From Minisyncoccota bacterium (GTDB lineage Bacteria; Patescibacteriota; Minisyncoccia; Phycocordibacterales; UBA918), in NCBI GenBank assembly GCA_041389025.1, contig JAWKSP010000001.1, forward strand, positions 2 to 64,001: a stretch of DNA of 64,000 bases. Direction: 5' to 3'. Positions 15,442-36,406 of the stretch are shown one piece after another. Below the pieces are notes generated by a model. The model was not told where the DNA came from and ran no database searches. It saw nothing but the letters and a program-made list of their open reading frames with translations. Position numbers and translations under genes: made by a program. How positions within the stretch are numbered: the stretch's first letter is position 1; the number at the start of each line of letters is the position of its first letter.

Positions 15442-17694
15442 CTATTCTTCTTTATTAGGTACACAACCGATTTGTGGATCATTACCAGCCTCAATATTAC
15501 CAATAAAACAATTAGCGGTTTTAGCAAAAGTTGGCTTAGCTTCAATACTACCTCGTAAAGTTTCAACTGCTTTCTCTAACTCGCCATTTTGATAATATAA
15601 GAAAGAAAGCGATACCCAATTCTGTTCATTCTCTGGATCGTTTTTGGTTCTAGCTTCATAAGCTCTAACCAAGAAATCACTATCTCCAGCTTTGTTTGCA
15701 GCGCTTAATAAGAAATCATTACCGGCTAGATTTTGTACATAAGAATCTTCTTTCAACAATTCTTTAGCCTCTTCGTTCTTGTTTTGCATATAAAGAACGG
15801 CAGCATAAAAACCTCTAGCTTCAGTATTCCTGTGATCCAACTCAAAAGCTTCTTTAAAATATTCTTCAGCCTGCTCAACATTACCTTGACTATAAGCAAT
15901 AATGGCTTGTTGAGATATGATTGATTGTTTATTTGGTGACAATTCCCTAGCCGTCTCCATTTGCTCCTTAGCCTTAGATAAGTCACCAACAGCTCGATAG
16001 AAACTTGAGAAGAAAACATGTATGCGAGCATCACCAGGCTTCCACTCTACCAACCGCTTCAATTCTTCCTCTGCAGTCTTTATATAATCCTGTCTAATTT
16101 CTTCAGGAACGTTCGTATTAGATGCTATATTCATAGCCTGTTGAGCCAACTGTTCAGTTATCTCTTGGTAAGCAAATGAATCACGGCTAAGTGCCCTCTT
16201 AAAAGCTTCTAACCTAATTTCTGGATCATTAGAACCATAACCATCAATGATGTCTGACGCAGCATTCATACCAGGAAGATGTAAAGTATAAACAAGAACA
16301 ATAGCAAGTACCAAAGCCACTGGTGCTGCAAATTGATTAATTAAACTTTTCTCAACCTTAACATTTTCAATAGTTTCCACAGGCTTAGCCACCCGACTGT
16401 GTATCAAGGCTAAAATAACTGCAAAGAAAATGTAACTGATAATATTATCGAATACCACCAGATTGTGAGTAAAATATCCAGCTAAAATACCGACCAACAC
16501 AGCTCTTTCCAATACAGTAAATGACTCGTCTTCTTTATTGCGTAAAGGAACTACTACTAGATAATATAAACAAGTTGCAAACACACTCATGTAAGCAATG
16601 AAACCAAGAATACCACCAGTTGTAAGCCAGTCCATTACTATGTTGTGTGAACGATCAAACCATTGCTCTTGATCAAATAAGAAAGGATCGTACTGCTCGT
16701 TAAATATATAATTGAAATTGCTCTGACCCCAGCCAAGAATCGGACGTTCCTTCACCCCTTCAAAGGCCATACCCCAAATAGTCATACGGACCTTTAAGTC
16801 TTCGGCTAAGTTAATATTAGCAATTCGAGATAAGTTAGGATTGTCTTGTATAAAAGCCGAGTCTTTACCTAAAACAAAACCCCCCACCCCAATTGCTAAT
16901 AAAATAAAGAAACCAACCGCTACTTTTCTTAACTCTTTATACCGAGCTCCAAAAATAGCTATATAAGCAACCATAATAGTAATACCGACCCCTAAACCTA
17001 AAGTTGTACCTCTTGTACCAGTCTCAACTAAAGTAAAAATAAACATTAGAGTTAAAAGTCCATATATCACACGGTATAAATTCACCTTACTTTCAACCAA
17101 CATCCAAAGGGCAATAAAGATATGAAAGAACATGTAAATAGCCAAATAAGCAGCGTTACCCAAGTAACTTTCAATACGATTCTTGCCAAAATTAACATCA
17201 CCCAATTGAGCAAGACCATTTAAGGCTACGATAAAAGCTACTACTAAAGTAGTGTGTAAAAAATAACTCCAGAGTTTTTTGGTAGTAAGCACACTACCCA
17301 GCACCAAAACATAAAGAAAGACGTGAACAAGCGTGATATATCCATCCATCCGTTCAAAATTACTCCAAAAACTAGATGGTGGATGTTGTCCAAATAAATT
17401 AGCAAAAAACATTACGACCAAGAGTGAAATTAAACTCAACAGTACCCACGAAAATTTTGGACGATATCTAACTTCAGACAAAGCCAAAACTACCCACGCC
17501 AAAAACGACATTTCAACTAAAATGCGAAAAGCAAAATTTTTACCGGTAATATAAGGAAAGAAATAATCATTAGCGACATAAAGCGTCAAAAAAGGTACAG
17601 CAAAAAGACCGCCGTACACCACTACTTTTAAAAAACTATTCATATGGCAGTCAATATAACATATTTCAAAATTAGTACCCCTATAGACAAACAA
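15442..17694 (-). CDS. O-antigen ligase (Wzy_C) family polytopic membrane protein with C-terminal TPR-repeat domain. Candidate O-antigen ligase, polymerase or O-oligosaccharyltransferase.
   Basis: ~12 TM helices in the first ~470 aa, followed by a ~270-aa soluble helical-repeat (TPR-like) region. Alternative start MNSFLK at 17643. Confidence 0.65.
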   Translation of the reverse strand: MFVYRGTNFEICYIDCHMNSFLKVVVYGGLFAVPFLTLYVANDYFFPYITGKNFAFRILVEMSFLAWVVLALSEVRYRPKFSWVLLSLISLLVVMFFANLFGQHPPSSFWSNFERMDGYITLVHVFLYVLVLGSVLTTKKLWSYFLHTTLVVAFIVALNGLAQLGDVNFGKNRIESYLGNAAYLAIYMFFHIFIALWMLVESKVNLYRVIYGLLTLMFIFTLVETGTRGTTLGLGVGITIMVAYIAIFGARYKELRKVAVGFFILLAIGVGGFVLGKDSAFIQDNPNLSRIANINLAEDLKVRMTIWGMAFEGVKERPILGWGQSNFNYIFNEQYDPFLFDQEQWFDRSHNIVMDWLTTGGILGFIAYMSVFATCLYYLVVVPLRNKEDESFTVLERAVLVGILAGYFTHNLVVFDNIISYIFFAVILALIHSRVAKPVETIENVKVEKSLINQFAAPVALVLAIVLVYTLHLPGMNAASDIIDGYGSNDPEIRLEAFKRALSRDSFAYQEITEQLAQQAMNIASNTNVPEEIRQDYIKTAEEELKRLVEWKPGDARIHVFFSSFYRAVGDLSKAKEQMETARELSPNKQSIISQQAIIAYSQGNVEQAEEYFKEAFELDHRNTEARGFYAAVLYMQNKNEEAKELLKEDSYVQNLAGNDFLLSAANKAGDSDFLVRAYEARTKNDPENEQNWVSLSFLYYQNGELEKAVETLRGSIEAKPTFAKTANCFIGNIEAGNDPQIGCVPNKEE

Positions 17695-17786
17695 AAAGTA
17701 GCAAGGTACAAAGTTGAAAAAATCGCTTAAATAAGAAACCTTTCACTTAAAAGACCTGTTATACTCATATACACAAATTTGCACAC

Positions 17787-19034
17787 ATGAAAAATCACAT
17801 TGTTGGATGGTTAAGACAAACTGAAAAATATACCCGAACCGATATGGTGTACTTGGTCGGTCAAAGTGGCTGGCTTATTGTAGGCCAAGCTGTGGCATTA
17901 ATCAGTTCCCTTACACTAGCTTGGGTATTTGCTAATTTTGTTGAACCTAGTGACTACGGTATATATAGATATGTATTAACATTAGCAATCATTGCCTCTG
18001 TTACTGCACTTACTGGTTTTGGAGTTGCTATAGCTAGAACGGTATCACAAAATTACGAGGTAAATTTAAACAAAATTATGAAAATCAAAATCAAATTTGG
18101 TTTTCTCGGTACAGTAGCTTTTCTCGGTATATCTTTATATTACCTTTGGCAAGAGAATACCATGCTAGCCACTATTTTTGCCACTATAGCTATCTGGATT
18201 CCATTCTATGAATCTCTATCGGATTACCAGTTTGTGTTACAAGGAAAAAAAGACTTCAAACTACAAACCGTCATTCGAACCTTACAGAGAACTTTTGTTA
18301 CCGTTATTGTAATTTTAACTATTTTTATAACAAAAAATATTATTGTAGTTACTTTTACTTATTTTCTAGCCACTACCTTGTCACAATATTTATCTAATCG
18401 TTATACACAAAAAAAATATTTCACCGGAAACGATACAAAAACTCCATACAAAACCATGACTACTTACGCTAAACATTTATCAGTACAAAATATATTTTTC
18501 ATAGGAGTTACACAACTTGATAAAGTTCTTTTGTTTAAATTTCTTGGACCAACTAAATTAGCTATCTATCTATTTGCTATCTCTATCCCAAACGAAATAC
18601 AAGGTATTCTAGGCAACATAAATTCAGTCGCTTTTCCAAAATTAGTAGATCGTGATAGTCGACACTTCAAGATCGCTCTTCTTAAAAAAATCGGAGTTTT
18701 TACTCTAATTCTTCTAATCCCAGTTGCTTTGTATTGGTTAGCTGCTCCTTATATATTTAAATTACTGTTCCCAGTTTATGTAGATTCGATACTTATATCA
18801 CAATTATTCGTCGGCACTATCCTCTTTATTCCGATTAGTTTAATTTGGCATTATTTCTATGCCGTAGAAGATAAGAAAGTTTTATGGTTTGGAACATTCG
18901 TTGGTCCCTTGACTCTTATTTTTAGTATTATCATTCTTGTCCCTATACTAGATTTAGTTGGAGCAGTTCTAGCCGTATACATAAGAGGTTTTGTAGACTT
19001 ACTCTTTGGACTGTATTTCTTTTTGAGAAAATGA
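17787..19034 (+). CDS. Polysaccharide/oligosaccharide flippase (Wzx/MOP superfamily-like), 12-14 TM
   Basis: 415 aa, highly hydrophobic, flippase-like architecture. Divergently transcribed from the Wzy_C-TPR gene. Confidence 0.65.
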   Translation: MKNHIVGWLRQTEKYTRTDMVYLVGQSGWLIVGQAVALISSLTLAWVFANFVEPSDYGIYRYVLTLAIIASVTALTGFGVAIARTVSQNYEVNLNKIMKIKIKFGFLGTVAFLGISLYYLWQENTMLATIFATIAIWIPFYESLSDYQFVLQGKKDFKLQTVIRTLQRTFVTVIVILTIFITKNIIVVTFTYFLATTLSQYLSNRYTQKKYFTGNDTKTPYKTMTTYAKHLSVQNIFFIGVTQLDKVLLFKFLGPTKLAIYLFAISIPNEIQGILGNINSVAFPKLVDRDSRHFKIALLKKIGVFTLILLIPVALYWLAAPYIFKLLFPVYVDSILISQLFVGTILFIPISLIWHYFYAVEDKKVLWFGTFVGPLTLIFSIIILVPILDLVGAVLAVYIRGFVDLLFGLYFFLRK

Positions 19035-19096
19035 AAAGCGGCAAAACATTATAGTCATACCGCTTTTAAAGGCTATTTATTAATAGCCGAATAAAA

Positions 19097-19894
19097 CTAA
19101 TTATTAATAAAGAACTCGTGCTCGGCCAGCCACAAGCAATAATCTCGAACTTCTTCCAGTGAGGCCACATCATCTGTGTAGGCTAAAACTTTTGCAAACT
19201 CACTGGTATGAAAATCTACCTGACTAATTAAACAATCCTTAGAAGAATCTTGGCATGAAATCATCATCAATTCTTTAAACGGACTTATGGCGTGCGGCAC
19301 AGGTATAATTGGAATCTTAACACCTCGCTTGATAAATGCTTTCAGTTGCGTACAAAACGCTCGTGGAAACAGATGTCCAGGAGCTGCCATCAAAGCAATT
19401 GCTTCAATATTATGCTCGACTACCATATCAGTGACCCATTTGGCCTGCTCACCAGTGTGTCTTGCGTGTACTTGAGTGAAAAACTGTGTAGCACCACTCA
19501 AGTCAGCTGCCGCTATAGCATTACCAATCTTATCGACTGAATAATAAGCTCGTGTTCGACCCTTATACCCACCATCAGAACCAGAGTAGGCCAAATGATG
19601 ACCAGCCACCAAGAAATGTGGACTCTCCAACTCATACACAAGATCTATCGCGTCAGATAAGGGATCTTCCGGAATAATTCCCGGATACAAAACTGTAGAT
19701 ATACAACCTTGCGGCGCCGGTCTGTATAAAGAAGCGAGTCCAGACACTGCCATGGTAAGCTTCTGTAAATAATCAATTTCTCGACCAATCTGATCAGCAA
19801 CCGTCTGGTCACCAATCAGTTTTGTAAACTTACCATCAGGACCAAAAATACTGTCTTTGTAAGGTACAACAACATAAGGTTTTTCTGCTGCCAT
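19097..19894 (-). CDS. Hypothetical protein of probable foreign origin. Weak, speculative resemblance of an AGHHLAYSG segment to MEMO/LigB-type PHAGY-YSG motifs.
   Basis: Local GC ~48% versus ~30% for its surroundings. Strong SD taggagggaactta-ATG, which native genes in this window lack. No confident family assignment. Confidence 0.5.
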   Translation of the reverse strand: MAAEKPYVVVPYKDSIFGPDGKFTKLIGDQTVADQIGREIDYLQKLTMAVSGLASLYRPAPQGCISTVLYPGIIPEDPLSDAIDLVYELESPHFLVAGHHLAYSGSDGGYKGRTRAYYSVDKIGNAIAAADLSGATQFFTQVHARHTGEQAKWVTDMVVEHNIEAIALMAAPGHLFPRAFCTQLKAFIKRGVKIPIIPVPHAISPFKELMMISCQDSSKDCLISQVDFHTSEFAKVLAYTDDVASLEEVRDYCLWLAEHEFFINN

Positions 19895-19991: not shown

Positions 19992-20888
19992 CCCTGAATC
20001 CATAAACTCAAATAATCTTATTCAAAGCCATGATCTGATAACTCAGTAACACTCGTACATAATGAAGAGCATACCCTGATACAGAACGAGGAAAAGAAGT
20101 AACCAAGTGTAGATGCTCTTTAAGGTAATCAAACACACATTCAACTTTGGAACGTAGGTTAAGTAACCGTAGCTGCTGTGAGGTAGCGATTTTTTTCTTT
20201 TGACTTGGCCACGGTGGAGCGATAATGGCGGTACCATAATTTTCATAAACAATCCTGCTACGACACAATGTTCATTTAAAATATCAGTCATGACCTGAGC
20301 ATCGTGGATGTTAGCTAGTGTGAAAGCCATTCCACACAGTCTACCATCCAAAGCAACACTGGCATGAAGTTTAAATCCATAGTGCCAACCTTGCCAATTC
20401 TTGCCAAAATCAGCTATATTCTTAGCCACTTTATACCTATCTACTCGATGGTTCTTGCAGACCGGTAACATAGTGGAGTCTATTAGTCTGATAGCTTCGG
20501 TGGTACCAAGTAGTTGGTTTAACAGGTAATACATTTGTGGTAATGCCTTATGGCAGTGATTAACAAAGGCTGAGTATTTGGGTAATTTAAAGTCATTGTT
20601 GTGATAAACCAGAATAGTGTCATGAATATCCTTCAGGGTTTTTTGTTTAAGAACAATAGTGTTCCAAATCAATATGGTTATCACTTCAGATTCGGATAAC
20701 AAAGCCGGTCTACCGGTAACATAGGGCTTGGTATCAATCTGTTGGTCTACCCAATAATATAAATCTACTATATGATGTGAATACAAAAAGAGCATAGTAC
20801 GTTATTTATGTTGGTATATAGATATCGTACGTGCTCTTTTTGTGTTTTAAGGGTTTAATTGGGGATACTTGAGTTTATGGATTCAGGG
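19992..20888 (-). mobile_element. IS982-family insertion sequence (~0.9 kb) with 20-bp terminal inverted repeats and a 6-bp target-site duplication.
   Basis: Left IR CCCTGAATCCATAAACTCAA (19992-20011) and right IR TTGAGTTTATGGATTCAGGG (20869-20888) are perfect reverse complements. A flanking direct repeat TTTCGT lies at 19986-19991 and 20889-20894. The internal ORF has IS982 transposase motifs. Confidence 0.75.
20008..20795 (-). pseudogene. IS982-family DDE transposase, frameshifted. The 250-aa and 86-aa ORF-track entries are two frames of one gene.
   Basis: N-terminal frame has IDSTMLPVCKNHRVDRYKVAKNIADFGKNWQGWHYGFKLHASVALDGRL. C-terminal frame has VECVFDYLKEHLHLVTSFPRSVSGYALHYVRVLLSYQI. 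The frames overlap near a T7 homopolymer at about 20200-20210. Confidence 0.7.
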
Positions 20889-20969: not shown

Positions 20970-21440
20970 TTAAGTTTTTCTTGGAGATTGGTTTAACCGA
21001 ATTAACTCTTCTCTCATTCGACTCAAAATATTTTCAACTAATTGTTTATCTCTTGAGTCGTTAAATCTGAAGTCAGCTGATTCTGGCTTTCTTTCTAAAT
21101 CACTTAAATCAAAAATTGCAACAAAAAACTCTTCAGTAGACAAAAGACCTGTAGACTTTTTAGCATAGATTCCTCTACCACTTACATTTGAATAAGACCC
21201 CCCAGCAATAATACGCTCACGAATAACTAAAGGATCTTTGTAATGTGGTTGCAAGACTACAATCATCTCTTTCAAGTATTTATCAAGAACCTTTTTTATT
21301 CTCTTATTATCATCATCAATATAAGCTAGTAAATGTGCTCCACAATATAAAACTACAAATACTAACAATAGTAATAATAATGAATGTGAAACTGAAAATA
21401 AAAATTCTATTACTGGATTTGACATTATCCCTGAAAACAT
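20970..21440 (-). CDS. Hypothetical membrane-anchored protein
   Basis: 156 aa, N-terminal TM LLLLLLVFVVLYCGAHLLAYI. Confidence 0.4.
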   Translation of the reverse strand: MFSGIMSNPVIEFLFSVSHSLLLLLLVFVVLYCGAHLLAYIDDDNKRIKKVLDKYLKEMIVVLQPHYKDPLVIRERIIAGGSYSNVSGRGIYAKKSTGLLSTEEFFVAIFDLSDLERKPESADFRFNDSRDKQLVENILSRMREELIRLNQSPRKT

Positions 21441-21515: not shown

Positions 21516-22340
21516 TTATCCTCCCTTAATCCGACTTAAAGCCAAATCAAAAAATTGTCCAGTGTCCCACACTGTATAACCTTCCCTAACTAGGTCCAGA
21601 GTCATAACCTTAGAAGTTGGGCCAAGTGAGGTCATGATCAAAGTATCAGCTTTTGGTAGAGTCGAGACCACATTCCTCACCTCTTTCATTAACTGGTCAT
21701 ATTGTAGCCAGGCATCACTCGAAGGACCTTCGACATAAAAAGTTTTTAAGCCGAGCTGTTGGTCTTGAAAGCGAGCTGTGTTACTAGCTACTATCACCAA
21801 ATTCTTAGTCTTTAGGTGATCGATTAAATTATCGTAAGGCAGACCTTTGTTATAGCGACCATGAAAAGTTAGAGCGCTACCGTAGACCTGATCTTTGTTT
21901 ATGTAATCCTTTAGATAAATCTTGCTGTTGGTCCAAAAATGATGTTGCTCCCCGATTCCCTCGGCTTCAAATCCGGCTTTGGTTTTTAGAATAAATTCCG
22001 GGTTAAAACAAACCAGTAAATCTGGGTGGTCGGAAGACAGAACTTCTTTTAGACGCTCGGCCAAAAGCGGATGGTAAGTCTGGTGCCAGTTATCAAAGTA
22101 AAGTCCAACCCCGAGGAGCATATCAAAAACTTCATCACCAAACCGCACGATCGACTTGTTGTTATTTAAAATCTCATTTACTGTCTCGTCGTAGTTAAGA
22201 AACCTGACATCTTTATAATGATCAATATAAGAATCAGCGACTTGATTGTAATACAAATACTTCTTTACAAACGGCACCAAAGCTGGCGGATGGTCAATAA
22301 ATTTCCGCAACCGATTTTTCCATATATATAAAGTCGACAT
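21516..22340 (-). CDS. Hypothetical protein, paralogue of 26940..27782. Tentatively a DUF1792/GT-D-like glycosyltransferase.
   Basis: Shares the S-I-[IV]-R-F-G-D-(G)-E-V motif (NKSIVRFGDEVFDML) with 26940..27782 (GRSIIRFGDGEVYLM). Confidence 0.4.
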   Translation of the reverse strand: MSTLYIWKNRLRKFIDHPPALVPFVKKYLYYNQVADSYIDHYKDVRFLNYDETVNEILNNNKSIVRFGDEVFDMLLGVGLYFDNWHQTYHPLLAERLKEVLSSDHPDLLVCFNPEFILKTKAGFEAEGIGEQHHFWTNSKIYLKDYINKDQVYGSALTFHGRYNKGLPYDNLIDHLKTKNLVIVASNTARFQDQQLGLKTFYVEGPSSDAWLQYDQLMKEVRNVVSTLPKADTLIMTSLGPTSKVMTLDLVREGYTVWDTGQFFDLALSRIKGG

Positions 22341-24223: not shown

Positions 24224-24306
24224 ATTTTTTCAATTTTTACTTGCTTTTGAGGCCATAATAGCATACATTATCACCAAACACAGGGTTGTGTTGGACTGTA
24301 TTTATC

Positions 24307-26043: not shown

Positions 26044-26047
26044 ATCT

Positions 26048-26923: not shown

Positions 26924-26939
26924 ATTAAAAAATAATTAA

Positions 26940-27782: not shown

Positions 27783-27875
27783 AGCAAATTAAAGCCAAAT
27801 TACGATATAACATGTATTGTCTTATTGTTTAAAAATTATATTAATCTCTATAAAAGTTCAATGTAATAAATTTAA

Positions 27876-29620: not shown

Positions 29621-29884
29621 CTACCTCCTTGTTGTCAAGATATTATAAATTTCAACTTTTTAATACATCTAATTATAATAAAAGGGAAATCAAAAAATAA
29701 AACCCTCCCCGCAATGACTAACTTGAGTATACTAGAATATATTCAGTACTTATAAATACCTTACTAATATGAGTTTAAAAACAAATAAAATGACGGTAGG
29801 CAACCTTAAAGGGAAGTAAAATGACAAAAAATTTGGTTATTCTATATAAATTAAACTTTTACTGTTATAATATATACTTAAACA

Positions 29885-30931
29885 ATGCAAAAAAATATTA
29901 TTGAAAAGAAACCTTTACCATGTTGCCCAGCTTGTAAAGCCTTTGGTATAGAGATGTACACCAACCTTACTGATGACCTATCTAAAACAGATGGTATTTG
30001 GCAAATGAAAAAATGTAGCAACTCCAATTGCGGGACTTACTGGCTTGATCCTACACCAGACCCAGATAATCTATACTTATTATACAAAGATTATACAACT
30101 CACACGGATCCCTTACCGATACAAAATAACAACAAAAGATCAGGTCTAAAGAAACTACTGGATCAAACAAGACAATCTATACTAAACCAAGAACTGGGTT
30201 ACCCAAGCCCTCTTTCTAAAGTAAGAAAGAAATTATTGAACACAATATCATTGATACATCCTGGCTGGCGTAATGAACAACTTAACCAAGTACTATATAT
30301 ACCTTATGTAAATAATGGACACTTATTAGATGTTGGTTGTGGCAGTGGAGCAGCTATGATTGATTTACAGAAAATGGGTTGGAAAGTGACAGGTATCGAT
30401 TTTGACCCAAACGCCATACACAACGCTAAACAGAAAGGACTAAACGTGTATCTTGGTGACTTAAAACAGATTAATTTTCCCGATAATTCATTTGATGCGA
30501 TTCTTATGAGTCATGTAATAGAACACGTACCAAACCCAATAGAAACATTAAAAGAATGTCACCGTATTCTAAAACACAACGGACACTTAATAGCAATCAC
30601 TCCCAACGCTGATTCTCGCGGACATAGACGTTTTAAAGATCATTGGCGAGGACTTGAAGTTCCAAGACATTTGCAAATATTCACTCCAAACTCCTTGAAA
30701 AACATTGGACTAAAAGCTGGTTTCAGAATATCAGAAGAAAAAAATTGTATGCAAGGTATTTACTACATTTGGGACGCTTCTGCTGCACATGAAATGACCG
30801 GTACTTATGAATTACCACCACAAAACACAAAAACTAAGCTAATGGCAAAGCTACGATTATTTGTAGCAGGTATCAGAATGTCGATCAGTCCAAACAAAGA
30901 AGAAACTGCTATACTACACTGTCAAAAATAA
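29885..30931 (+). CDS. Class I SAM-dependent methyltransferase with N-terminal Cys4 zinc-ribbon
   Basis: CCPACKAF...CSNSNC, then LLDVGCGSGAAMIDLQKMGWKVTGIDFDPNAI (motif I), then AILMSHVIEHV. Confidence 0.7.
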   Translation: MQKNIIEKKPLPCCPACKAFGIEMYTNLTDDLSKTDGIWQMKKCSNSNCGTYWLDPTPDPDNLYLLYKDYTTHTDPLPIQNNNKRSGLKKLLDQTRQSILNQELGYPSPLSKVRKKLLNTISLIHPGWRNEQLNQVLYIPYVNNGHLLDVGCGSGAAMIDLQKMGWKVTGIDFDPNAIHNAKQKGLNVYLGDLKQINFPDNSFDAILMSHVIEHVPNPIETLKECHRILKHNGHLIAITPNADSRGHRRFKDHWRGLEVPRHLQIFTPNSLKNIGLKAGFRISEEKNCMQGIYYIWDASAAHEMTGTYELPPQNTKTKLMAKLRLFVAGIRMSISPNKEETAILHCQK

Positions 30932-30953
30932 AGTTAGCTTCAATTTATAACCT

Positions 30954-31802
30954 TCATATTCCAATTCCAACAAATTTACGCCACCAACCTCTAATCAATT
31001 TTGCGTAATACACCATCAGTAGAAAAGATCTCTTTTTAAATGACAAAACTCCATTTCCGGAAAGAAGTTTTAAATACTTCATATTTTCTTCTATTGCTTC
31101 TTTTTCTCTAGTTTTTAAAGCAATCAAATCATCTCTAGTTGAAAATCCCACCATATTATTCTGATGTTGACGATAAGTATTAGTTACTTTATCAATAAAA
31201 AATGGTTTAGCTGGATAGATTGCTAATTGGATCCACGAATCATGAGCTGGACAATAATCTGGTACTGGCATTACACTTTTAAGTAAATCTGTACGGTACG
31301 ATGTCTGAGCCGCTCCAATACAAGTACCCCAAGTATTTTCTAATACGGTTTTATGACGATAATAATCAGATAGAGTATCTTCAATGTAGCCAGTTTCATT
31401 TCCATCACTATCAGTCAACACACATCGATTGAAAGCCCACATTATCGAAGGATCCCTATACGCATCAACGTGACTCTGGATCTTATTTTCAAACCATATA
31501 TCATCCTGATCACAAAGAATAATAATTTCTCCTTTGCACAATAAAATTGCATTTTCAGTATTTTTTCTGAAACCTCGTTCAAGTGGACTTCGTGACCACC
31601 TAAAGCGTTTATCTTTTGCGCAATACTCATTCAAAATAGCCACTGTATCTGGCTCACTGCCGTCATCACTTATTACCACCTCATAATTCTGATAAGTTTG
31701 AACCAATATGGAGTCAAGCTGTTCTTTTAATAATTGACCACCATTAAAGGTAGTGAGAGCAATAGATACAAGTGGACTAAAATCTGTGAAACTAGAATTC
31801 AT
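30954..31802 (-). CDS. Family 2 glycosyltransferase
   Basis: VSIALTTFNGGQLLKEQLDSILVQTYQNYEVVISDDGSEPDT, CDQDDIW. Confidence 0.7.
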   Translation of the reverse strand: MNSSFTDFSPLVSIALTTFNGGQLLKEQLDSILVQTYQNYEVVISDDGSEPDTVAILNEYCAKDKRFRWSRSPLERGFRKNTENAILLCKGEIIILCDQDDIWFENKIQSHVDAYRDPSIMWAFNRCVLTDSDGNETGYIEDTLSDYYRHKTVLENTWGTCIGAAQTSYRTDLLKSVMPVPDYCPAHDSWIQLAIYPAKPFFIDKVTNTYRQHQNNMVGFSTRDDLIALKTREKEAIEENMKYLKLLSGNGVLSFKKRSFLLMVYYAKLIRGWWRKFVGIGI

Positions 31803-31889: not shown

Positions 31890-32675
31890 ATGAAAAATAA
31901 AATACTAAAGATACTTAAATATCTACCCAATATTCCTAAAGTATTTTTGGAAATTAAAAATCCTGCAACTTTTTTTCTAGGATATTTTAAAACAACAGAT
32001 AATAACATTAATCTATTTGGTGATATTACTCTAAAAACAAAAAATCCAGACGACATTAGTTCTATAAGTGCCATAGTAGTTAAAAATGAATATGGTAAAG
32101 ATTTTAACAAAAATAATAATTGGACCATAATAGACATAGGAGCTAATAAGGGTTTTTTCTCACTGTATGCATCTAAAAACCCTTCAAATATAATATTTTC
32201 TTATGAACCAATAACAGAAACTTACAACGAGCTTCGTGACAATATTGATTTAAACAAAAAAAATAATGTTTATACTTTTAATCTTGGCGTGGCTGGAAAA
32301 GACGGTTATAGAGATTTTTCATATGAGGATGATAAAAGTATCCTATCTTCCATGATTTTTGATGTTGGTAGTGAGTCAAAAAGTGCAAAAGTGCAATGTA
32401 TTACACTTAAAAATTTATTCACCTCCAACAATCTAGAAAAAGTAGATCTATTGAAGATGGATTGTGAAGGGTCAGAGTTTGAAATACTATATGGTACAGA
32501 CAATAGTATCCTCAGTAGAATCAAACGTATCAGAATGGAGTACCACAATTCACCAAAAGAAGAGGCCTATAATATTGATAAGTTGTCTTTATATTTGAAT
32601 AAAAATGGATTTAGATTAACAAAGAAAATTCAATCGAATCAAACACTTGGCATTGCTTGGTTCGAATTAGTTTAA
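31890..32675 (+). CDS. FkbM-family methyltransferase (second copy)
   Basis: IIDIGANKGFFSLYASK...FSYEP. Confidence 0.7.
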   Translation: MKNKILKILKYLPNIPKVFLEIKNPATFFLGYFKTTDNNINLFGDITLKTKNPDDISSISAIVVKNEYGKDFNKNNNWTIIDIGANKGFFSLYASKNPSNIIFSYEPITETYNELRDNIDLNKKNNVYTFNLGVAGKDGYRDFSYEDDKSILSSMIFDVGSESKSAKVQCITLKNLFTSNNLEKVDLLKMDCEGSEFEILYGTDNSILSRIKRIRMEYHNSPKEEAYNIDKLSLYLNKNGFRLTKKIQSNQTLGIAWFELV

Positions 32676-33463
32676 AGTTTACCACCTTCTAGATCCAAAA
32701 TGCTAGACCCGAATTCTTGCTTTAGTTGTCTAACCGATTGCGGAGCATAACCACGAAACTTCAATCCTTTTAAAATCCTAGCTCTATTTGGCAAATGATC
32801 GGCTGTGTATATTATTGGCCTAGTCAATGAATACAATTTTTCTGCTCCTCCTAAACTAACCAAATATGCTCCGGCAAAATATACTGGTCTAAAAAATCTA
32901 ACTGGCCCTGGTGAAAGTTTTTTATATTTATTTCTCATTCCCTCAAATAAACTTAGCGGTATAATGTAAAAAGCCTTAAATATTGCATATAAAGAAAAAG
33001 CTATAGATTTAATCGGTTTATCCTGCCAGAGTTTTTTAACATTTTCAAAAACTCCCTTAACCCATTGTTTTATAAAAGGTATACCTACCACCACATAATC
33101 AAACAACAAATACTCCCAATCCTGATTTTTATTTTTTCCTATCTCTTTTTCTATAATAGTCTTAAAGTTAGACGGAAAGGCGATGTCGTCTTCCAAAACT
33201 AAAGCATAGGATATCCTTTCTTTTACTATGGTTTCAATCACCCGAGCATGTGATAAAGCACAACCTACTTCACCAGGTATTAATGCATGACCACCTTTTT
33301 TTATCGCTTGCTCTTCGTCATATTCATCTTTGGAAGGAGTATACTCTCTACCCGACACCCCTGCTTGTCTACGATAATCAATACTAAGTTTTGTAAGTTC
33401 ATGACGCATGTGATCCATTCGATCTTTGTCTTTATCAAGATTTATAACAAATGTAGTAAACAT
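32672..33463 (-). CDS. Family 25 glycosyltransferase (LPS/LOS-type)
   Basis: FVINLDKDKDRMDHMRHELTKLSIDYRRQAGVSG and GEVGCALSHARVIE are characteristic Glyco_transf_25 motifs. Confidence 0.7.
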   Translation of the reverse strand: MFTTFVINLDKDKDRMDHMRHELTKLSIDYRRQAGVSGREYTPSKDEYDEEQAIKKGGHALIPGEVGCALSHARVIETIVKERISYALVLEDDIAFPSNFKTIIEKEIGKNKNQDWEYLLFDYVVVGIPFIKQWVKGVFENVKKLWQDKPIKSIAFSLYAIFKAFYIIPLSLFEGMRNKYKKLSPGPVRFFRPVYFAGAYLVSLGGAEKLYSLTRPIIYTADHLPNRARILKGLKFRGYAPQSVRQLKQEFGSSILDLEGGKL

Positions 33464-33468
33464 AAAAA

Positions 33469-34167
33469 TTAATAACTATTTCCTTTAATTTTCTTTAAAA
33501 ATTTCATTAACCCTAACCGTCTCAATGCCTTCCTTACATAAGCCAATGGTACCCATGATTCAGCCCAGTGATTCCTAGCATAGGCTACCGCCAACTTTTC
33601 ATCAGTACAATTCTCACCGTCATTACAAGGATTGAAATAACGATAATCATAAACCTCAACCCCTTCATAATTTCCCTTACTCAAAACATCAGTCACCGTC
33701 CTTGGGGAAGTACGTTTCATAGAATATTCACGGTCATTGTCATACACTGCTAAAATAGCTCTTATCGCTGAATGGTATGGTATCGAACCTATAACACCAG
33801 CAGCTGTTACATCATCCTTAGTCTGGCCAAAAAATGCCTCGTGTTTAAGCAACGGGTCAAACGATTGTAAAACCTCCGTATCGGTATCTAAATAAATACC
33901 TCCCTCCTTTTCCAACACCCAAAATCTTATATAGTCTGCCACAAATGCCCATTTCTTTCTCTCATACATCACCTTTACATAATGATGACTCATAGGACTA
34001 TTACTCTCATTCCAAAGCTTTATCTCATAATCAGGTAAGTATCTTTTCCAGCTCTCAATACAACGCTCAGCTAGCGGAGTTAGTGGCTGTTTACCAACCC
34101 AAATGTAATGAATCGTTTTAGGAATTTTATTTTCTTTATCTAACATAAATAACCCATACCCTGTCAC
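33469..34167 (-). CDS. GT32-like glycosyltransferase (Gly_transf_sug, DxD-containing)
   Basis: IPKTIHYIWVGKQPLTPLAERCIESWKRYLPDYEIKLWNE and YLDTDTEVL. Confidence 0.6.
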   Translation of the reverse strand: MTGYGLFMLDKENKIPKTIHYIWVGKQPLTPLAERCIESWKRYLPDYEIKLWNESNSPMSHHYVKVMYERKKWAFVADYIRFWVLEKEGGIYLDTDTEVLQSFDPLLKHEAFFGQTKDDVTAAGVIGSIPYHSAIRAILAVYDNDREYSMKRTSPRTVTDVLSKGNYEGVEVYDYRYFNPCNDGENCTDEKLAVAYARNHWAESWVPLAYVRKALRRLGLMKFLKKIKGNSY

Positions 34168-34220
34168 CCAATCACTTTATCAAAAGCAAGCTATATAATA
34201 AAGTAGTATGCCAATAGATG

Positions 34221-35060
34221 CTAACCCCACTCCTCCGCAAAATCCCTATGTAAAAGATTTGATATGACTTTGATATCTTGTTTATAATATTCTTTTAACT
34301 CCACTTCCAGTTCTTTTGAAATTATTAAACGATTGGCTTTATCTATATCTGAAAGTGTAATTTTCTTAGGTTTTAATTTATCGTTTAAAAAATTTAATAG
34401 AGTCTTGATTTTTTCTTTTATGTAAGAAGTCATTCTTTTAATTAATCCTTTATGGCCTGAATCAGCCTCATCATCAATCATTAAATGTTTCAAGTCGGCT
34501 GGGACAAAACCCGAATCAACTCCTATATGCTCATAAACAGATTTTAATTCTTCTAAGGGTCTATCATTTAAGTCAGAAAGTATAATTACTTTTAAGTTTA
34601 TACTTGAATAAAAACTAAAAAAACTCACCAATTGTTGTCCATACAAAAAATTTTTAAGTAAATTTTTATTAACTGAAATAAACTGCTCAAAGGTATAATT
34701 ATCTCTTTTTTTCCTATCTTTACTTCTTATATATTCCAATTTTAAAGCCAAAATAGGGTTATCAATCACAGCGATCAGATTGGCATCGGGATAAGTTTTA
34801 GCAATCAATTCAGCCGAATCATAATTTTGTAAATAATGGTTAGATAGTTCTCCTTGTTTTTTATCTTCATCTTTTTGAAAAAAACCTTCATACCAATCGA
34901 CTCCTTTTGTATACTTTTCATGGTTACAGAAAAAATCAATAGCTTCTTCCGGTACAGATACTTCTGGATGAACCCTAATATAATTATAAATTTTTTCGGA
35001 AAAACTACCAGTCCCGATACCAATAAACGAAAGTAATTCTCTTTTCTTAATCATAAACAA
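34221..35060 (-). CDS. Hypothetical protein, possibly sulfotransferase-family-like
   Basis: N-terminus FIGIGTGSFSEKIYNYIRVHPEV loosely resembles the 5'-PSB region of Sulfotransfer_3 proteins. Weak. Confidence 0.3.
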   Translation of the reverse strand: MFMIKKRELLSFIGIGTGSFSEKIYNYIRVHPEVSVPEEAIDFFCNHEKYTKGVDWYEGFFQKDEDKKQGELSNHYLQNYDSAELIAKTYPDANLIAVIDNPILALKLEYIRSKDRKKRDNYTFEQFISVNKNLLKNFLYGQQLVSFFSFYSSINLKVIILSDLNDRPLEELKSVYEHIGVDSGFVPADLKHLMIDDEADSGHKGLIKRMTSYIKEKIKTLLNFLNDKLKPKKITLSDIDKANRLIISKELEVELKEYYKQDIKVISNLLHRDFAEEWG

Positions 35061-35092
35061 ATTATTTCTATACTGTATACATTAGTTGAAAA

Positions 35093-36406
35093 TTAATTAT
35101 CTATAATCAAGGCTTTCTCAACTGAATTACGGTAGGCAGTTTTATACTTTTCCGGATCATCATGAAAATGTTTGCGAATCATATTTTGGGCTGACTCTAC
35201 CAAACGACGTCGTAAAGATACGTCATTCATAATCATATTTAACTTAAGACTAAATTCATCTGTATTATCCGGCTCACACAGTAAAGCTGATTCACCATCA
35301 ACAAAAATATCTTCTCTAGCTGGTGTTCTTGATATTACCATTGGTATACCGGCCGCTGCCCCTTTAAGTGCCAACTCATCACCGACAGCGTTAGTATCAG
35401 TAATCACAAGTACACTAGCTGACTTAAGATAAGGTATTGTGTCTTTTACTTTAGGTTCAAAAACTACTTGTTTTTTAATCTCCAAAATTTCTGCCCTCTT
35501 CTCAAACTCTCTTCTGGCCGGACCATCACCCAAAACGACGAGACCAATATGTGGATTTCTGAGCCCAAACCGTCCAGCGTCAATCGCTCTAAAGAGAGTA
35601 CTATCATGACCTAGTCGTCCGATATATAACATAATAAAAACAAAAGGTCGATACTTATCCTTTAAATCGATAGTTGGTTTTACTGATATCAGAGGTTCAT
35701 AGTTGTTAAATTTAGGTAAAATAGCCAAATCTTTTATTTTAAAATTTTTGTTAACACAATCATAAATACCATCGGTTATTACTCTAACACTATCTACTCT
35801 AGATAAAGTATATTTAGCTAAAAGCCGACGCCAACGATTATGTTTTTCTTTTTTTAAAAAAACTGGTTTGGTATAGTCTTCAAGTACATGTACTTGAACT
35901 GAACATTTGAATTTTTTACCAATACGAATAGCTAAAAAAGCGCTTTCAAACGGATCGCGTGCTACCACTAAATCCGGCCTGAAACCTTCGGCAAAAATTA
36001 GTTGTTCCTTTACTAATTTCATCCCAGCGTTTGGTGTAGACCACCAGTCGTCGCTACTAGCTGTATACAACCACACATTATCAGCCACCCGCAAAACTGG
36101 TGTCTTTGACTTAATTCCTTCTCTTAGAATCAAGATATGCACCTCATCAAATAAATCAGATAAATTAGTATAACCATCAAGCGATTGTTTTGAGGGATTA
36201 AGTAATGATTCGTCTCTAGAAATAAATAAAACTCTTGTTTCCTCTCGGTCAGATTTAGCTTGAAATAAAGCCTCTTCATTTACCGCTTCTTCAACCGAAA
36301 CGTACTTAGTATCATCTTTATTCTTCTCTTCTTTCTTTAAAATATAATCAAGATTATATCGCTCAGATTCAGAAGCATCTATTTGTGACAGATCTTTTCT
36401 TGCCAT
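35093..36406 (-). CDS. Family 4 (GT-B) glycosyltransferase
   Basis: C-terminal EDIFVDGESALLCEPDNTDEFSLKL (GT4 EX7E-like region). 437 aa. Confidence 0.6.
   Translation of the reverse strand: MARKDLSQIDASESERYNLDYILKKEEKNKDDTKYVSVEEAVNEEALFQAKSDREETRVLFISRDESLLNPSKQSLDGYTNLSDLFDEVHILILREGIKSKTPVLRVADNVWLYTASSDDWWSTPNAGMKLVKEQLIFAEGFRPDLVVARDPFESAFLAIRIGKKFKCSVQVHVLEDYTKPVFLKKEKHNRWRRLLAKYTLSRVDSVRVITDGIYDCVNKNFKIKDLAILPKFNNYEPLISVKPTIDLKDKYRPFVFIMLYIGRLGHDSTLFRAIDAGRFGLRNPHIGLVVLGDGPARREFEKRAEILEIKKQVVFEPKVKDTIPYLKSASVLVITDTNAVGDELALKGAAAGIPMVISRTPAREDIFVDGESALLCEPDNTDEFSLKLNMIMNDVSLRRRLVESAQNMIRKHFHDDPEKYKTAYRNSVEKALIIDN

What the first reader, a model, noticed from the sequence alone, without database searches (positions are those of the whole stretch)
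15442..36406. Large surface-glycan locus: Wzy_C-TPR membrane protein, flippase and a 15-kb GT/sugar-modification block with two GT-D (DUF1792)-like paralogues. Candidate protein O-glycosylation system.
The locus opens with a Wzy_C (O-antigen-ligase family) protein carrying a C-terminal TPR domain, transcribed divergently from a Wzx-like flippase. It contains three GT2, one GT4, one GT25 and one GT32-like glycosyltransferase. It also has two paralogous proteins sharing an SI[IV]RFGDGE motif reminiscent of DUF1792/GT-D enzymes, which are known from serine-rich-repeat adhesin glycosylation. Further genes are a 4,6-dehydratase-like SDR, an RmlD-like reductase, a sugar N-formyltransferase, two FkbM O-methyltransferases and a Zn-ribbon SAM-MTase. 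This would make a formylated and methylated deoxy-amino sugar glycan. Wzy_C proteins include the PglL/PilO O-oligosaccharyltransferases, and the TPR domain would suit protein-substrate recognition. The window also encodes a type IV pilin and giant Ser/Thr/Asn-rich surface proteins as possible acceptors. Inference: a general O-linked protein glycosylation system rather than LPS, since no lipid A/core genes are evident and this is plausibly a monoderm CPR-type organism.
Basis: inference. Interest (0 to 1): 0.6.

Follow-up and report, generated by a model that had tools for sequence, protein, structure and literature searches.

The report
Variable surface-sugar island with conserved TPR ligase
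An ultra-small candidate-phyla bacterium carries a 21-kb block of sugar-building genes beside a membrane enzyme, conserved across its whole class, that probably attaches finished sugar chains to something on the cell surface; what it attaches them to (protein, lipid or cell wall) cannot be decided from sequence.

Summary
Corrections: one "unknown" gene is a carbohydrate sulfotransferase; a frameshifted IS transposase sits inside the locus; the 64-kb window has no aminotransferase, priming phosphoglycosyltransferase or separate Wzy/Wzz.

The organism is a Paceibacteria (CPR) bacterium. The Wzy_C-TPR protein has a WaaL-like 12-helix core with the catalytic Arg and His conserved. A 13th helix places the TPR domain outside the cell.

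The family is very large: at least 551 species genomes and 2476 clusters at E<=1e-30, all with the same ~730-aa architecture. The gene is fixed directly upstream of murB-secA-obg-gatB. The other side is a hypervariable glycan island (Jaccard 0.08 against 0.43 downstream). Wzx-type and ABC-type islands never occurred together in one locus.

This is the logic of a conserved en-bloc ligase, not a polymerase. Protein O-glycosylation (WsfB/PglL-like) is the leading reading, at about 0.4. A TacL-like glycolipid ligase or a cell-wall ligase is not excluded. PglL_A and Wzy_C_2 domains are absent. Verdict: partly supported; a new variant of a known kind; moderate interest.

The parts
15442..17643 (-). 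Conserved ligase: WaaL-fold 12-TM core (Wzy_C), a 13th TM helix, and an extracytoplasmic TPR domain of about 260 aa. The mechanical ORF extends to 17694; the likely start is ATG 17643.
   Evidence: Pfam. AF2 pLDDT 86, pTM 0.82. Foldseek to WaaL 7TPG, TM 0.55-0.62. Invariant R211, R273, P301, G304, G306, H333, D399 in 223 sequences. Topology and positive-inside pattern.
14414..15439 (-). murB, starting 2 nt after the ligase stop codon; the conserved downstream operon partner.
   Evidence: Pfam. MurB is the next gene in 52 of 74 related loci and second in 6 more.
17787..19034 (+). Wzx-type flippase, divergent from the ligase.
   Evidence: Polysacc_synt 1.4e-15. A Wzx homologue is present in 38 related loci.
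19097..19894 (-). Unknown 265-aa soluble protein. It travels with the Wzx/GT-D/GT2/SDR module in relatives.
   Evidence: No Pfam, NCBIfam or PDB hit. Orthologues sit next to Wzx in L006 and L040.
20008..20795 (-). Frameshifted DDE transposase (IS remnant) inside the island.
   Evidence: DDE_Tnp_1_3 3e-19 covers only profile positions 2-79 of 155. The C-terminal part lies in an overlapping ORF, 20008-20268.
20970..21440 (-). Unknown 156-aa protein with one N-terminal TM helix.
   Evidence: No family hit. TM prediction.
21516..22340 (-). GT-D glycosyltransferase, paralogue a, with variant metal motif GD[DE]V.
   Evidence: PF08759 5.3e-19. TIGR03728 9.5e-23, below cutoff. Motif.
22373..23164 (+). 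GT2 glycosyltransferase.
   Evidence: PF00535 2.7e-21.
23210..24223 (-). GT2 glycosyltransferase, rhamnosyltransferase-like, with a C-terminal TM helix.
   Evidence: PF00535 5.5e-13. TIGR01556 1.8e-16, below cutoff. TM prediction.
24286..25245 (+). PseB/FnlA-like UDP-HexNAc 4,6-dehydratase (SDR).
   Evidence: Polysacc_synt_2 6e-43. PseB 3e-48 and FnlA 8.5e-36, both below cutoff.
25255..26043 (+). RmlD-like reductase (weak assignment).
   Evidence: RmlD_sub_bind 29.2 bits against cutoff 27. Always paired with the SDR in relatives.
26048..26923 (-). FkbM methyltransferase.
   Evidence: PF05050 2.5e-25. TIGR01444 1.8e-31.
26940..27782 (-). GT-D glycosyltransferase, paralogue b, with an intact DXE motif (DGE).
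   Evidence: PF08759 1.9e-20. Motif.
27876..28751 (-). Formyltransferase with an intact HxSxLPxxRG motif; plausibly a sugar N-formyltransferase.
   Evidence: Formyl_trans_N 1.5e-12. PDB hits: 1zgh 6e-18, ArnA 6e-9, WlaRD 9e-7. Well below the fmt cutoff.
28748..29620 (-). Unknown 290-aa protein overlapping the formyltransferase start by 4 nt.
   Evidence: No hits. Adjacent to the formyltransferase also in L040.
29885..30931 (+). Zn-ribbon plus class I SAM methyltransferase.
   Evidence: Methyltransf_23 7e-28. Cys pairs in the N-terminus.
30954..31802 (-). GT2 glycosyltransferase.
   Evidence: PF00535 1.8e-23.
31890..32675 (+). FkbM methyltransferase.
   Evidence: PF05050 6.3e-24.
32672..33463 (-). 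GT25 glycosyltransferase.
   Evidence: PF01755 2e-26.
33469..34167 (-). GT32-like DXD glycosyltransferase.
   Evidence: Gly_transf_sug 1.3e-15.
34221..35060 (-). In some relatives it lies directly upstream of the ligase.
   Evidence: Family profile A3 against PDB: HS 3-O-sulfotransferase 2.7e-27. Order GT4-sulfotransferase-ligase-murB in L022, L026, L029, L033, L068; in L032, whose contig starts within the sulfotransferase gene, only sulfotransferase-ligase-murB is seen.
35093..36406 (-). GT4 glycosyltransferase with a conserved 60-aa N-terminal extension; the island boundary gene next to cofD.
   Evidence: Glycos_transf_1 2.7e-17. Profile A4 against PDB: BshA-like 1e-20, PglH 5e-13. 10 related loci.
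36477..37490 (-). CofD/YvcK-family gene, the conserved flank on the far side of the island.
   Evidence: PF01933 5.9e-82. cofD-GT4-(sulfotransferase)-ligase order in L021, L022, L029, L035.

Best explanation
The region is a strain-variable surface-glycan island that feeds a lineage-conserved en-bloc glycan ligase.

Proposed mechanism:
1. An oligosaccharide of up to about nine or ten sugars is built on undecaprenyl phosphate at the inner face of the membrane. The builders are eight soluble or peripheral glycosyltransferases: 2 GT-D, 3 GT2, GT25, GT32 and GT4.
2. The sugars include 6-deoxy-HexNAc-type sugars made by the PseB/FnlA-like dehydratase and the RmlD-like reductase.
3. The glycan is decorated by methyl groups (2 FkbM, 1 Zn-ribbon methyltransferase), a formyl group and sulfate.
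4. The priming phosphoglycosyltransferase, any aminotransferase and PAPS synthesis are encoded elsewhere.
5. The lipid-linked glycan is flipped by Wzx.
6. The 13-TM Wzy_C-TPR enzyme transfers it as a block to a conserved acceptor on the outer face. It uses the WaaL-type Arg/His site in its large external loop. The external TPR domain holds the acceptor.

What is shown: gene content, fold, conserved catalytic residues, topology logic, synteny and island variability.

What is inferred: the ligase role rather than a polymerase role (I put this at about 0.8), and the acceptor. I commit to secreted or surface proteins as the most likely acceptor, that is an O-oligosaccharyltransferase like WsfB/WsaB/PglL acting on S-layer-like giant proteins and possibly pilins. 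I put that at only about 0.4.
For: Ligase family and fold:
- Wzy_C scores 66.6 bits against a cutoff of 31.7.
- The AF2 model has pLDDT 86.
- WaaL 7TPG is the only solved membrane fold that matches.
- R211 sits in an invariant T-R-G motif, matching E. coli WaaL R215. The H333-N-x9-G-x2-G motif matches WaaL H338. P301 matches WaaL P303.

External TPR:
- A 12-TM WaaL-like core plus one extra helix, with K/R-rich predicted cytoplasmic loops.
- TPR residues P536, D538, R540, S569, P570 and K572 are conserved in most of 223 sequences (181-221 of 223).

Conserved ligase, variable glycan:
- At least 551 species genomes encode a full-length relative.
- 2476 50%-identity clusters score E<=1e-30, and the top 150 all share the same length.
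- murB is the next gene in 52 of 74 loci.
- Upstream family Jaccard is 0.078 against 0.426 downstream, over 741 locus pairs.
- Islands in relatives carry heptose, nonulosonic-acid, PAPS, O-acetyl and aminotransferase modules.

Not a polymerase:
- 38 loci have Wzx and 13 have ABC exporters; none has both.
- No Wzz and no second polytopic protein occurs in the window island.

Lipid-linked pathway:
- A Bac_transf priming enzyme lies directly next to the ligase in L075 and L084.

Protein acceptor:
- WsfB of Paenibacillus alvei (a monoderm S-layer O-OTase candidate) and PglL are described as Wzy_C enzymes with a C-terminal TPR motif (PMC2943079).
- The PxxG304xG306 motif has the same spacing from the loop Arg as PglL P313/G316/G318. 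The paper reports those glycines as PglL-specific, and E. coli WaaL lacks them.
- A giant secreted S/T/N/G-rich protein is conserved in the same syntenic block in 18 loci.
- secA is in the same conserved gene string.
Against: - No acceptor can be read from sequence.
- PglL_A (PF15864) and Wzy_C_2 (PF11846), which mark PglL/PglS O-OTases (PMC12645811), gave no hit at E<=0.01.
- The PglL glycine comparison rests on published residue numbers, not on an alignment to PglL.
- hhalign against E. coli WaaL was not significant.
- The tight, conserved operon with murB points at least as much to the cell wall as to secreted proteins.
- Conserved gene order in these small genomes need not mean functional coupling.
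- TPR domains also act as polysaccharide-export scaffolds (cited in PMC2943079).
- R286, the spacing equivalent of WaaL R288, is Arg in only 102 of 223 sequences; the invariant Arg is R273.
- The pilin gene is unlinked.
- The priming enzyme is missing from the window.
Confidence: 0.42

Rival explanations
1. TacL-like ligase. The enzyme transfers the flipped glycan from undecaprenyl diphosphate to a membrane glycolipid. The product is a lipid-anchored lipoglycan, a monoderm counterpart of LPS or pneumococcal type IV lipoteichoic acid, whose sugar part varies between strains.
For: - TacL of S. pneumoniae is a Wzy_C-domain protein that ligates Und-PP-linked teichoic acid chains to a glycolipid in a monoderm (PMC5727136; PMC11324232 abstract).
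- A conserved ligase with a variable glycan is exactly WaaL logic.
- The catalytic residues are WaaL-like.
- A GT4 gene lies directly upstream of the ligase, or is separated from it only by the sulfotransferase, in about 9 related loci. It could in principle make an anchor.
Against: - TacL and WaaL are about 400 aa and need no TPR domain. Here a conserved external TPR domain of about 260 aa is a fixed part of the family.
- The GT4 profile is closest to BshA-like and PglH-type enzymes, not to glycolipid synthases.
- No teichoic-acid-type genes were found in the window.
- Parcubacteria are reported to lack phospholipid biosynthesis (PMC4508563), although scavenged lipids could still serve.
Confidence: 0.22
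2. Cell-wall ligase. The enzyme attaches the glycan to peptidoglycan or to lipid II during wall synthesis. This would be the job LCP enzymes do in Firmicutes. The TPR domain would dock on the wall-synthesis machinery.
For: - The ligase stop codon is 2 nt from the murB start.
- This pairing holds in 52-58 of 74 loci, down to 36% identity.
- The window is rich in wall genes: MurC/MurD-like ligases, a YkuD plus S11 fusion, and DUF4015.
- TPR domains are common protein-protein docking modules.
Against: - No Wzy_C-family enzyme is known, to my knowledge, to transfer to peptidoglycan.
- The same string also contains secA, obg and gatB, so the linkage may be mere conserved gene order.
- I could not check whether these genomes have LCP enzymes.
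Confidence: 0.15
3. Wzy-type polymerase. The protein polymerises flipped repeat units into a capsule-like or secondary wall polysaccharide. The TPR domain would act as a chain-length or export scaffold.
For: - The Pfam Wzy_C family also contains polymerases.
- The window island has no other candidate polymerase.
- TPR scaffolds are known in polysaccharide export (cited in PMC2943079).
Against: - In my understanding Wzy polymerases are repeat-unit specific and hypervariable. This protein is 36-75% identical across a class while the adjacent glycan genes turn over completely.
- It is also present next to 13 ABC-exporter islands that lack Wzx, where no Wzy is needed.
- The WaaL ligase motif H-N-x9-G-x2-G is intact.
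Confidence: 0.06

Closest known systems
WsfB (Paenibacillus alvei) and WsaB (Geobacillus stearothermophilus), predicted S-layer protein O-oligosaccharyltransferases
   Same: - Monoderm hosts.
- Wzy_C core.
- WsfB carries a C-terminal TPR motif; WsaB has a separate TPR protein next door (PMC2943079).
- Fed by a lipid-linked glycan cluster containing methyltransferases and rhamnose-type genes.
   Different: - Sequence relatedness to WsfB could not be tested.
- The CPR family is fixed next to murB rather than inside an S-layer glycosylation cluster.
- It is conserved over a whole class.
- No S-layer gene is adjacent.
PglL / PglS / TfpO / TfpM O-oligosaccharyltransferases of Gram-negative bacteria
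   Same: - WaaL-like fold.
- Conserved Arg/His.
- En-bloc transfer from Und-PP with relaxed glycan specificity, which would fit the variable island.
- A PxxGxG motif at the spacing reported for PglL.
   Different: - No PglL_A or Wzy_C_2 domain.
- An extra 13th TM helix and a large TPR domain.
- Not adjacent to a pilin gene.
- Monoderm host.
WaaL O-antigen ligase (E. coli; Cupriavidus structure 7TPG)
   Same: - The only solved structure matching the membrane core (TM 0.55-0.62).
- R215/H338/P303 equivalents are conserved.
- A conserved ligase serves variable glycans from either Wzx or ABC pathways.
   Different: - There is no lipid A-core acceptor in a monoderm CPR cell.
- 733 aa against about 400-420 aa.
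- External TPR domain.
- Far higher sequence conservation than WaaL shows between genera.
TacL lipoteichoic acid ligase (Streptococcus pneumoniae)
   Same: A Wzy_C enzyme in a monoderm that ligates a flipped Und-PP-linked polymer to a membrane acceptor.
   Different: TacL is 397 aa without a TPR domain. No teichoic-acid chemistry genes occur in this locus.
O-antigen and capsule loci as recombination hot spots between conserved flanks
   Same: - Hypervariable glycan gene content between fixed flanking genes (here cofD or other genes on one side, ligase-murB on the other).
- Low G+C patches.
- IS remnant in the window; toxin-antitoxin and excisionase-like genes in relatives' islands.
   Different: Here the conserved flank is the ligase itself, and the host is a class of ultra-small, probably episymbiotic bacteria.
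TPR-bearing protein glycosyltransferases (eukaryotic TMTC1-4, OGT, SPINDLY)
   Same: A TPR superhelix is attached to a glycosyltransferase and is used to select protein substrates. The TPR part of the model is structurally closest to the OGT/SPY TPR among natural proteins.
   Different: The catalytic folds are unrelated and the donors are different. The resemblance is an analogy only.

Membership tests
WaaL/Wzy_C superfamily (PF04932) | Wzy_C domain above the Pfam gathering score | tested here: met
   66.6 bits against cutoff 31.7, residues 214-369 of the 750-aa ORF.
WaaL/Wzy_C superfamily (PF04932) | About 12 TM helices with a large extracytoplasmic loop after TM9; fold like WaaL 7TPG | tested here: met
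   Helix map from the AF2 model, with an 80-aa loop at 259-334. Foldseek 7tpg_B: E 1.8e-4 with TM 0.62 for the full model, and E 2.4e-4 as the sole hit for the TM-only model.
WaaL/Wzy_C superfamily (PF04932) | Essential residues equivalent to E. coli WaaL R215, R288 and H338 | tested here: met
   R211 and H333 are invariant in 223 sequences. The H-N-x9-G-x2-G motif is shared with E. coli WaaL. At the R288-equivalent spacing, R286 is Arg in 102 of 223, but the nearby R273 is invariant. The alignment is by motif; hhalign was not significant.
PglL/PglS-class protein O-oligosaccharyltransferase | PglL_A (PF15864) domain | tested here: not met
   No hit at E<=0.01 in the Pfam scan. The feature is defined in PMC3643930 and PMC12645811.
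PglL/PglS-class protein O-oligosaccharyltransferase | Wzy_C_2 (PF11846) domain | tested here: not met
   No hit at E<=0.01.
PglL/PglS-class protein O-oligosaccharyltransferase | PglL-specific residues G316/G318 after the conserved Pro | tested here: inconclusive
   P301-x-x-G304-x-G306 is invariant and lies 15 residues after R286, the same spacing as PglL R298 to P313. E. coli WaaL has P-F-S-F-R-S. No PglL sequence was available for a direct alignment.
PglL/PglS-class protein O-oligosaccharyltransferase | Transfer of glycan to Ser/Thr of proteins | not testable with these tools
   Needs biochemistry or glycoproteomics.
WsfB-type monoderm S-layer O-OTase | Wzy_C core with a C-terminal TPR | tested here: met
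   The WsfB architecture is taken from PMC2943079.
WsfB-type monoderm S-layer O-OTase | Sequence relatedness to WsfB, and location in an S-layer glycosylation cluster next to the S-layer gene | not tested
Here a giant secreted protein lies about 9 kb downstream and is syntenic in 18 loci, but it is not adjacent.
TacL-type lipoteichoic acid ligase | About 400-aa Wzy_C protein without extra domains, working with teichoic-acid genes and a glycolipid anchor | tested here: not met
   733 aa with a TPR domain. No teichoic-acid-type genes occur in the window. The GT4 is not glycolipid-synthase-like. The mechanism remains possible.
Wzy O-antigen polymerase | Repeat-unit-specific, hypervariable sequence that co-varies with the glycan locus | tested here: not met
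   36-75% identity over the full length in at least 551 species, while upstream gene content has Jaccard 0.078.
Wzy O-antigen polymerase | Restricted to Wzx/Wzy-dependent loci, usually with Wzz | tested here: not met
   13 loci have ABC exporters and no Wzx. No Wzz-like or second polytopic protein occurs in the window island. The caveat is that only 10 kb upstream was examined.
GT-D glycosyltransferases (DUF1792, PF08759) | PF08759 above the gathering score | tested here: met
   69.3 and 74.1 bits against cutoff 27.
GT-D glycosyltransferases (DUF1792, PF08759) | DXE metal-binding motif (PMC9804384, citing Zhang 2014) | tested here: inconclusive
   26940-27782 has D-G-E. 21516-22340 has D-E-V and its orthologues have D-D-V, which is a conserved subfamily variant.
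Serine-rich-repeat adhesin glycosylation system | SRR adhesin, accessory SecA2/SecY2/Asp and GtfA/B next to the GT-D gene | tested here: not met
   None of these occurs in the window. The only SecA is the housekeeping 852-aa protein. GT-D genes occur only as island components, in 5 related loci plus the window.
Wzx flippase (Polysacc_synt, PF01943) | Domain above the gathering score; polytopic protein | tested here: met
   57.9 bits against cutoff 28.2. At least 7 strong TM segments by hydropathy.

The most novel reading that the evidence does not exclude
Across the class Paceibacteria, a 13-TM WaaL-fold enzyme with an external TPR clamp is a core, near-universal envelope enzyme, co-transcribed with murB and secA. 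It would run a general protein O-glycosylation system, or another envelope glyco-conjugation system without precedent in monoderms. Its glycan would be swapped between strains at a dedicated hot spot. This would make the sugar coat the main variable surface determinant of these episymbionts, governing host or phage recognition. It would also define a new O-OTase class distinct from PglL, PglS, TfpO and TfpM.
Probability: 0.3. Interest if true: 0.7.

Novelty: new variant of a known kind. Interest (0 to 1): 0.5.

Why it matters
Candidate-phyla-radiation bacteria make up a large share of bacterial diversity and many are thought to live attached to other microbes (all cultivated Patescibacteria are episymbionts, PMC11623550). 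Their surface chemistry is essentially unknown.

This analysis shows that one class keeps a single, highly conserved glycan ligase of unusual build at a fixed chromosomal site. The sugar-building genes beside it turn over almost completely between species. The range includes nonulosonic acids, heptoses, sulfate, and methyl, formyl and acetyl groups.

That provides:
- a concrete enzyme to test in glyco-engineering E. coli strains;
- a marker locus for typing surface variation in metagenomes;
- a defined question, namely which acceptor the TPR domain holds.

If the acceptor is protein, this would be a new class of O-oligosaccharyltransferase and the first described glycosylation system in CPR bacteria.

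Tried and rejected
1. Sequence searches of the membrane domain against PDB found nothing, either as a single sequence or as a 17-sequence profile. Only the fold comparison found WaaL.
2. hhalign of the family profile against E. coli WaaL was not significant (Prob 0.18). Residue equivalences therefore rest on motifs and spacing.
3. A TM-only AF2 model, made to escape the TPR hits, was poor (pLDDT 62). It still gave WaaL as the sole hit, and no PglL or Wzy structure was among the PDB Foldseek matches listed to discriminate further.
5. I first took invariant C712/C727 as a disulfide marking an external TPR. In the 223-sequence alignment the pair holds in only about 45 sequences, so I dropped that argument.
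6. I tested whether the neighbouring GT4 looks like a glycolipid-anchor synthase, which would have favoured a TacL-like role. It does not stand out from generic GT4 enzymes.
7. I treated GT4-sulfotransferase-ligase-murB as an ancestral core. The GT4 family is present in only 10 related loci, adjacent or near-adjacent to the ligase in about 9, and the sulfotransferase in 6, so it is a sublineage feature.
8. Literature searches found no description of this family or of glycosylation machinery in Parcubacteria/Paceibacteria. For Saccharibacteria, pilin glycosylation is only predicted.
9. The unknown proteins at 19097-19894, 20970-21440 and 28748-29620 gave no family or PDB hits.

Full report
**What is in the window.** The window is a low-G+C (about 35%) bacterial chromosome segment. 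It carries a 16S rRNA gene and one tRNA. The ligase protein is identical to a database entry from a 'Candidatus Paceibacterota bacterium' contig of 623 kb. All relatives are Patescibacteria of the Paceibacteria/Parcubacteria group. The flanks are housekeeping and cell-wall genes:
- gatB, obg, secA and murB on one side;
- cofD/yvcK, a lamin-tail/PKD protein, a VirD4-like ATPase, a YkuD-S11 fusion and Mur ligases on the other.

No lipid A or core genes were seen in the window.

**Checking the observation.** The two motif-sharing proteins are true GT-D (PF08759) members (5e-19 and 2e-20). They are distant paralogues of each other, at 28% identity.

Corrections and additions:
- The ligase most likely starts at ATG 17643, giving 733 aa.
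- Only the 26940 paralogue has the canonical DXE motif. The 21516 paralogue and its orthologues carry a conserved GD[DE]V variant. The motif definition comes from PMC9804384.
- ORF 34221-35060 is a carbohydrate sulfotransferase (family profile against PDB, 2.7e-27).
- 20008-20795 is a frameshifted DDE transposase.
- Three ORFs remain without any assignment.
- The window contains no DegT aminotransferase, no Bac_transf priming enzyme and no PAPS synthase.
- The island has no polytopic protein other than Wzx and the ligase.

The 'formylated amino sugar' and the sulfation therefore both depend on genes outside the window.

**The ligase itself.**
- Hydropathy and the AF2 model (pLDDT 86, pTM 0.82) give nine helices, an 80-residue loop with short helices, three more helices, a 13th long helix, and then about 13 TPR-type helices.
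- With the N-terminus inside, the K/R-rich short loops fall on the cytoplasmic side. The large loop and the TPR domain both fall outside.
- The only solved membrane protein matching the core is the WaaL O-antigen ligase 7TPG, with TM-score 0.55-0.62.
- The TPR part resembles designed TPRs and the OGT/SPINDLY TPR domains.
- Against E. coli K-12 WaaL, the motifs line up as follows: T-R211-G with T-R215-A; L-x-x-R286 with L-G-A-R288; P301 with P303; and H333-N-x9-G-x2-G with H338-N-x9-G-x2-G. These WaaL residues are the functionally essential ones, shared with PglL (PMC3643930).
- In a 223-sequence alignment spanning the family, R211, R273, P301, G304, G306, H333 and D399 are invariant. R286 is not invariant.
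- The P-x-x-G-x-G motif reproduces the spacing of PglL P313/G316/G318. The paper reports those glycines as PglL-specific, and E. coli WaaL lacks them.
- However, the PglL_A and Wzy_C_2 domains that mark PglL/PglS O-OTases (PMC12645811) are not detected.

**Comparative genomics, which is the most informative part.**
- The family is very large and uniform. More than 3000 hits appeared in the word-indexed search, with the top 120 at 58-75% identity.
- At least 551 species-representative genomes encode a relative.
- 2476 50%-identity clusters score E<=1e-30, and the top 150 are all about 700-830 aa and full length.
- Across 83 non-redundant loci, the gene after the ligase is murB in 52 of 74 cases and the second gene in 6 more. 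It is followed by secA, obg, gatB, two small unknown genes and a giant secreted protein.
- The gene before the ligase is different almost everywhere.
- In 39 loci with at least 8 kb on both sides, family-content Jaccard similarity is 0.078 upstream and 0.426 downstream, over 741 pairs.
- Upstream families, annotated by Pfam, are glycan genes of many kinds: SDR epimerases/dehydratases, NeuB and CMP-sugar synthetases, PAPS synthase (13 loci), DegT aminotransferases, GT2/GT4/GT-D/GT25, FkbM and other methyltransferases, AT3-SGNH O-acetyltransferases, GtrA-fused and PMT_2 membrane proteins, and asparagine-synthase homologues. They also include toxin-antitoxin and excisionase-like genes.
- A WbaP-type Bac_transf priming enzyme sits directly beside the ligase in two loci. 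This ties the system to undecaprenyl-phosphate carriers.
- Wzx is present in 38 loci and ABC exporter components in 13, and none has both. The caveat is that only 10 kb upstream was available.
- In some relatives the order is cofD-GT4-sulfotransferase-ligase-murB on one strand. In the window, the 16.5 kb from Wzx to GT32 is wedged between the sulfotransferase and the ligase.
- A sub-module (Wzx, the 265-aa unknown, GT-D a, two GT2, SDR, RmlD-like, with or without the formyltransferase and the 290-aa unknown) recurs in L006, L017 and L040.

**Interpretation.** A fixed, highly conserved Wzy_C enzyme sits beside a freely exchanging glycan island and serves both flippase-type and ABC-type assembly. 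That is the logic of a ligase such as WaaL, PglL or WsaB, which are indifferent to glycan structure. It is not the logic of a Wzy polymerase, which in my understanding co-varies with its repeat unit and is not needed in ABC pathways. I put ligase over polymerase at about 0.8.

With eight glycosyltransferases and no polymerase or chain-length regulator, the window's product is most simply one large decorated oligosaccharide.

**The acceptor.** The acceptor must be something conserved across the class. The conserved external TPR domain suggests that a macromolecular partner is held next to the active site.

Three acceptors are compatible:
- Protein. This is favoured by the WsfB/PglL TPR precedent (PMC2943079), the PglL-like glycines, the TPR analogy to protein glycosyltransferases, and the presence of abundant giant secreted proteins and pili in these organisms.
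- Glycolipid. TacL gives a proven monoderm precedent (PMC5727136).
- Peptidoglycan or lipid II. The conserved operon with murB points this way.

I commit to protein as the single most likely acceptor, at about 0.4, with glycolipid at 0.2 and cell wall at 0.15.

The inference that this is not LPS and not a conventional polymerase is supported. The specific claim of a general protein O-glycosylation system is plausible but unproven. The GT-D genes are ordinary island components with no serine-rich-repeat or SecA2/Y2 context. The pilin is 45 kb away.

**Novelty and score.** I found no description of this family or of CPR glycosylation machinery in the searchable literature. For Saccharibacteria, pilin glycosylation is only predicted. 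Databases name the protein 'O-antigen ligase family protein'.

The system is a new variant of a known kind: en-bloc Und-PP-glycan ligation with a hypervariable glycan locus. It is distinguished by three things:
- the 13-TM plus external-TPR build;
- class-wide conservation;
- a fixed position at the head of a murB-secA gene string.

Interest is moderate (0.5). The pattern is clear and testable, but the key biological claim, the acceptor, cannot be settled computationally here.

Noticed in passing
window 55910-57674 (-): The 16S rRNA gene spans 1765 nt against a 1533-position model. That implies about 230 nt of inserted sequence. I understand such insertions to be common in CPR rRNA genes (from memory).
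   Followed up: no
window 51068-52834 (-): A MurD-like Mur ligase (N, M and C domains) is fused to a C-terminal NUDIX hydrolase domain (588 aa). It sits next to a MurC-like ligase at 49756-51075.
   Followed up: no
window 41146-42627 (-): A single 493-aa protein combines a YkuD L,D-transpeptidase domain with a Peptidase_S11 D-Ala-D-Ala carboxypeptidase domain.
   Followed up: no
window 37512-41126 (-) and 54706-55071 (+): A lamin-tail plus PKD surface protein, a TrwB/VirD4-like coupling ATPase (719 aa) and a T4SS_pilin-family small protein. Together they hint at a type IV secretion or conjugation-like apparatus next to the glycan locus.
   Followed up: no
window 1270-6123 (-), 6129-6662 (-), 7011-7865 (-): A 1617-aa secreted protein (42% S+T+N+G, no Pfam hit), preceded by two small unknown membrane proteins. 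The trio is syntenic downstream of gatB in many Paceibacteria (the giant in 18 loci, the small proteins in 38). It is a candidate S-layer or adhesin and a possible glycan acceptor.
   Followed up: partly
related loci L011, L012, L031, L037, L039, L042-L047, L061, L065 (gene just upstream of the ligase in 8 of them): A bifunctional ATP-sulfurylase/APS-kinase (PAPS synthase, 551 aa) lies in the glycan island of 13 loci. Together with the sulfotransferase family, this implies sulfated surface glycans in Paceibacteria. To my knowledge sulfated surface glycans are uncommon in bacteria.
   Followed up: partly
window 20008-20795 (-): An IS remnant (frameshifted DDE_Tnp_1_3 transposase) lies inside the island. 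In relatives the islands also carry RelE/antitoxin-like pairs and excisionase-like HTH genes, consistent with a recombination hot spot.
   Followed up: partly
window 26001-30000: The G+C fraction drops to 0.30-0.32 in the middle of the island, against 0.34-0.39 around it. This is typical of horizontally exchanged glycan genes.
   Followed up: no
window 15442-17643 (-), residues 300-333 of the ligase model: In the full-length AF2 model the external loop helices are confident (pLDDT about 86-88). In the model without the TPR domain the same residues fall below 50. This may mean the TPR packs on the catalytic loop, but the second alignment was also shallower (17 against 40 sequences).
   Followed up: no
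window 28748-29620 (-) and 19097-19894 (-): Two soluble proteins (290 and 265 aa) have no detectable family or solved homologue. They travel with the formyltransferase and with Wzx respectively in related islands. They are candidate novel sugar-modifying enzymes; the 290-aa protein might replace the missing aminotransferase step.
   Followed up: partly
window 60884-63015 (-): Several small secreted or lipoprotein-like ORFs (161, 170, 121 and 176 aa) lie beside the type IV pilin-like gene at 63203-63745. None matched pilin models.
   Followed up: no
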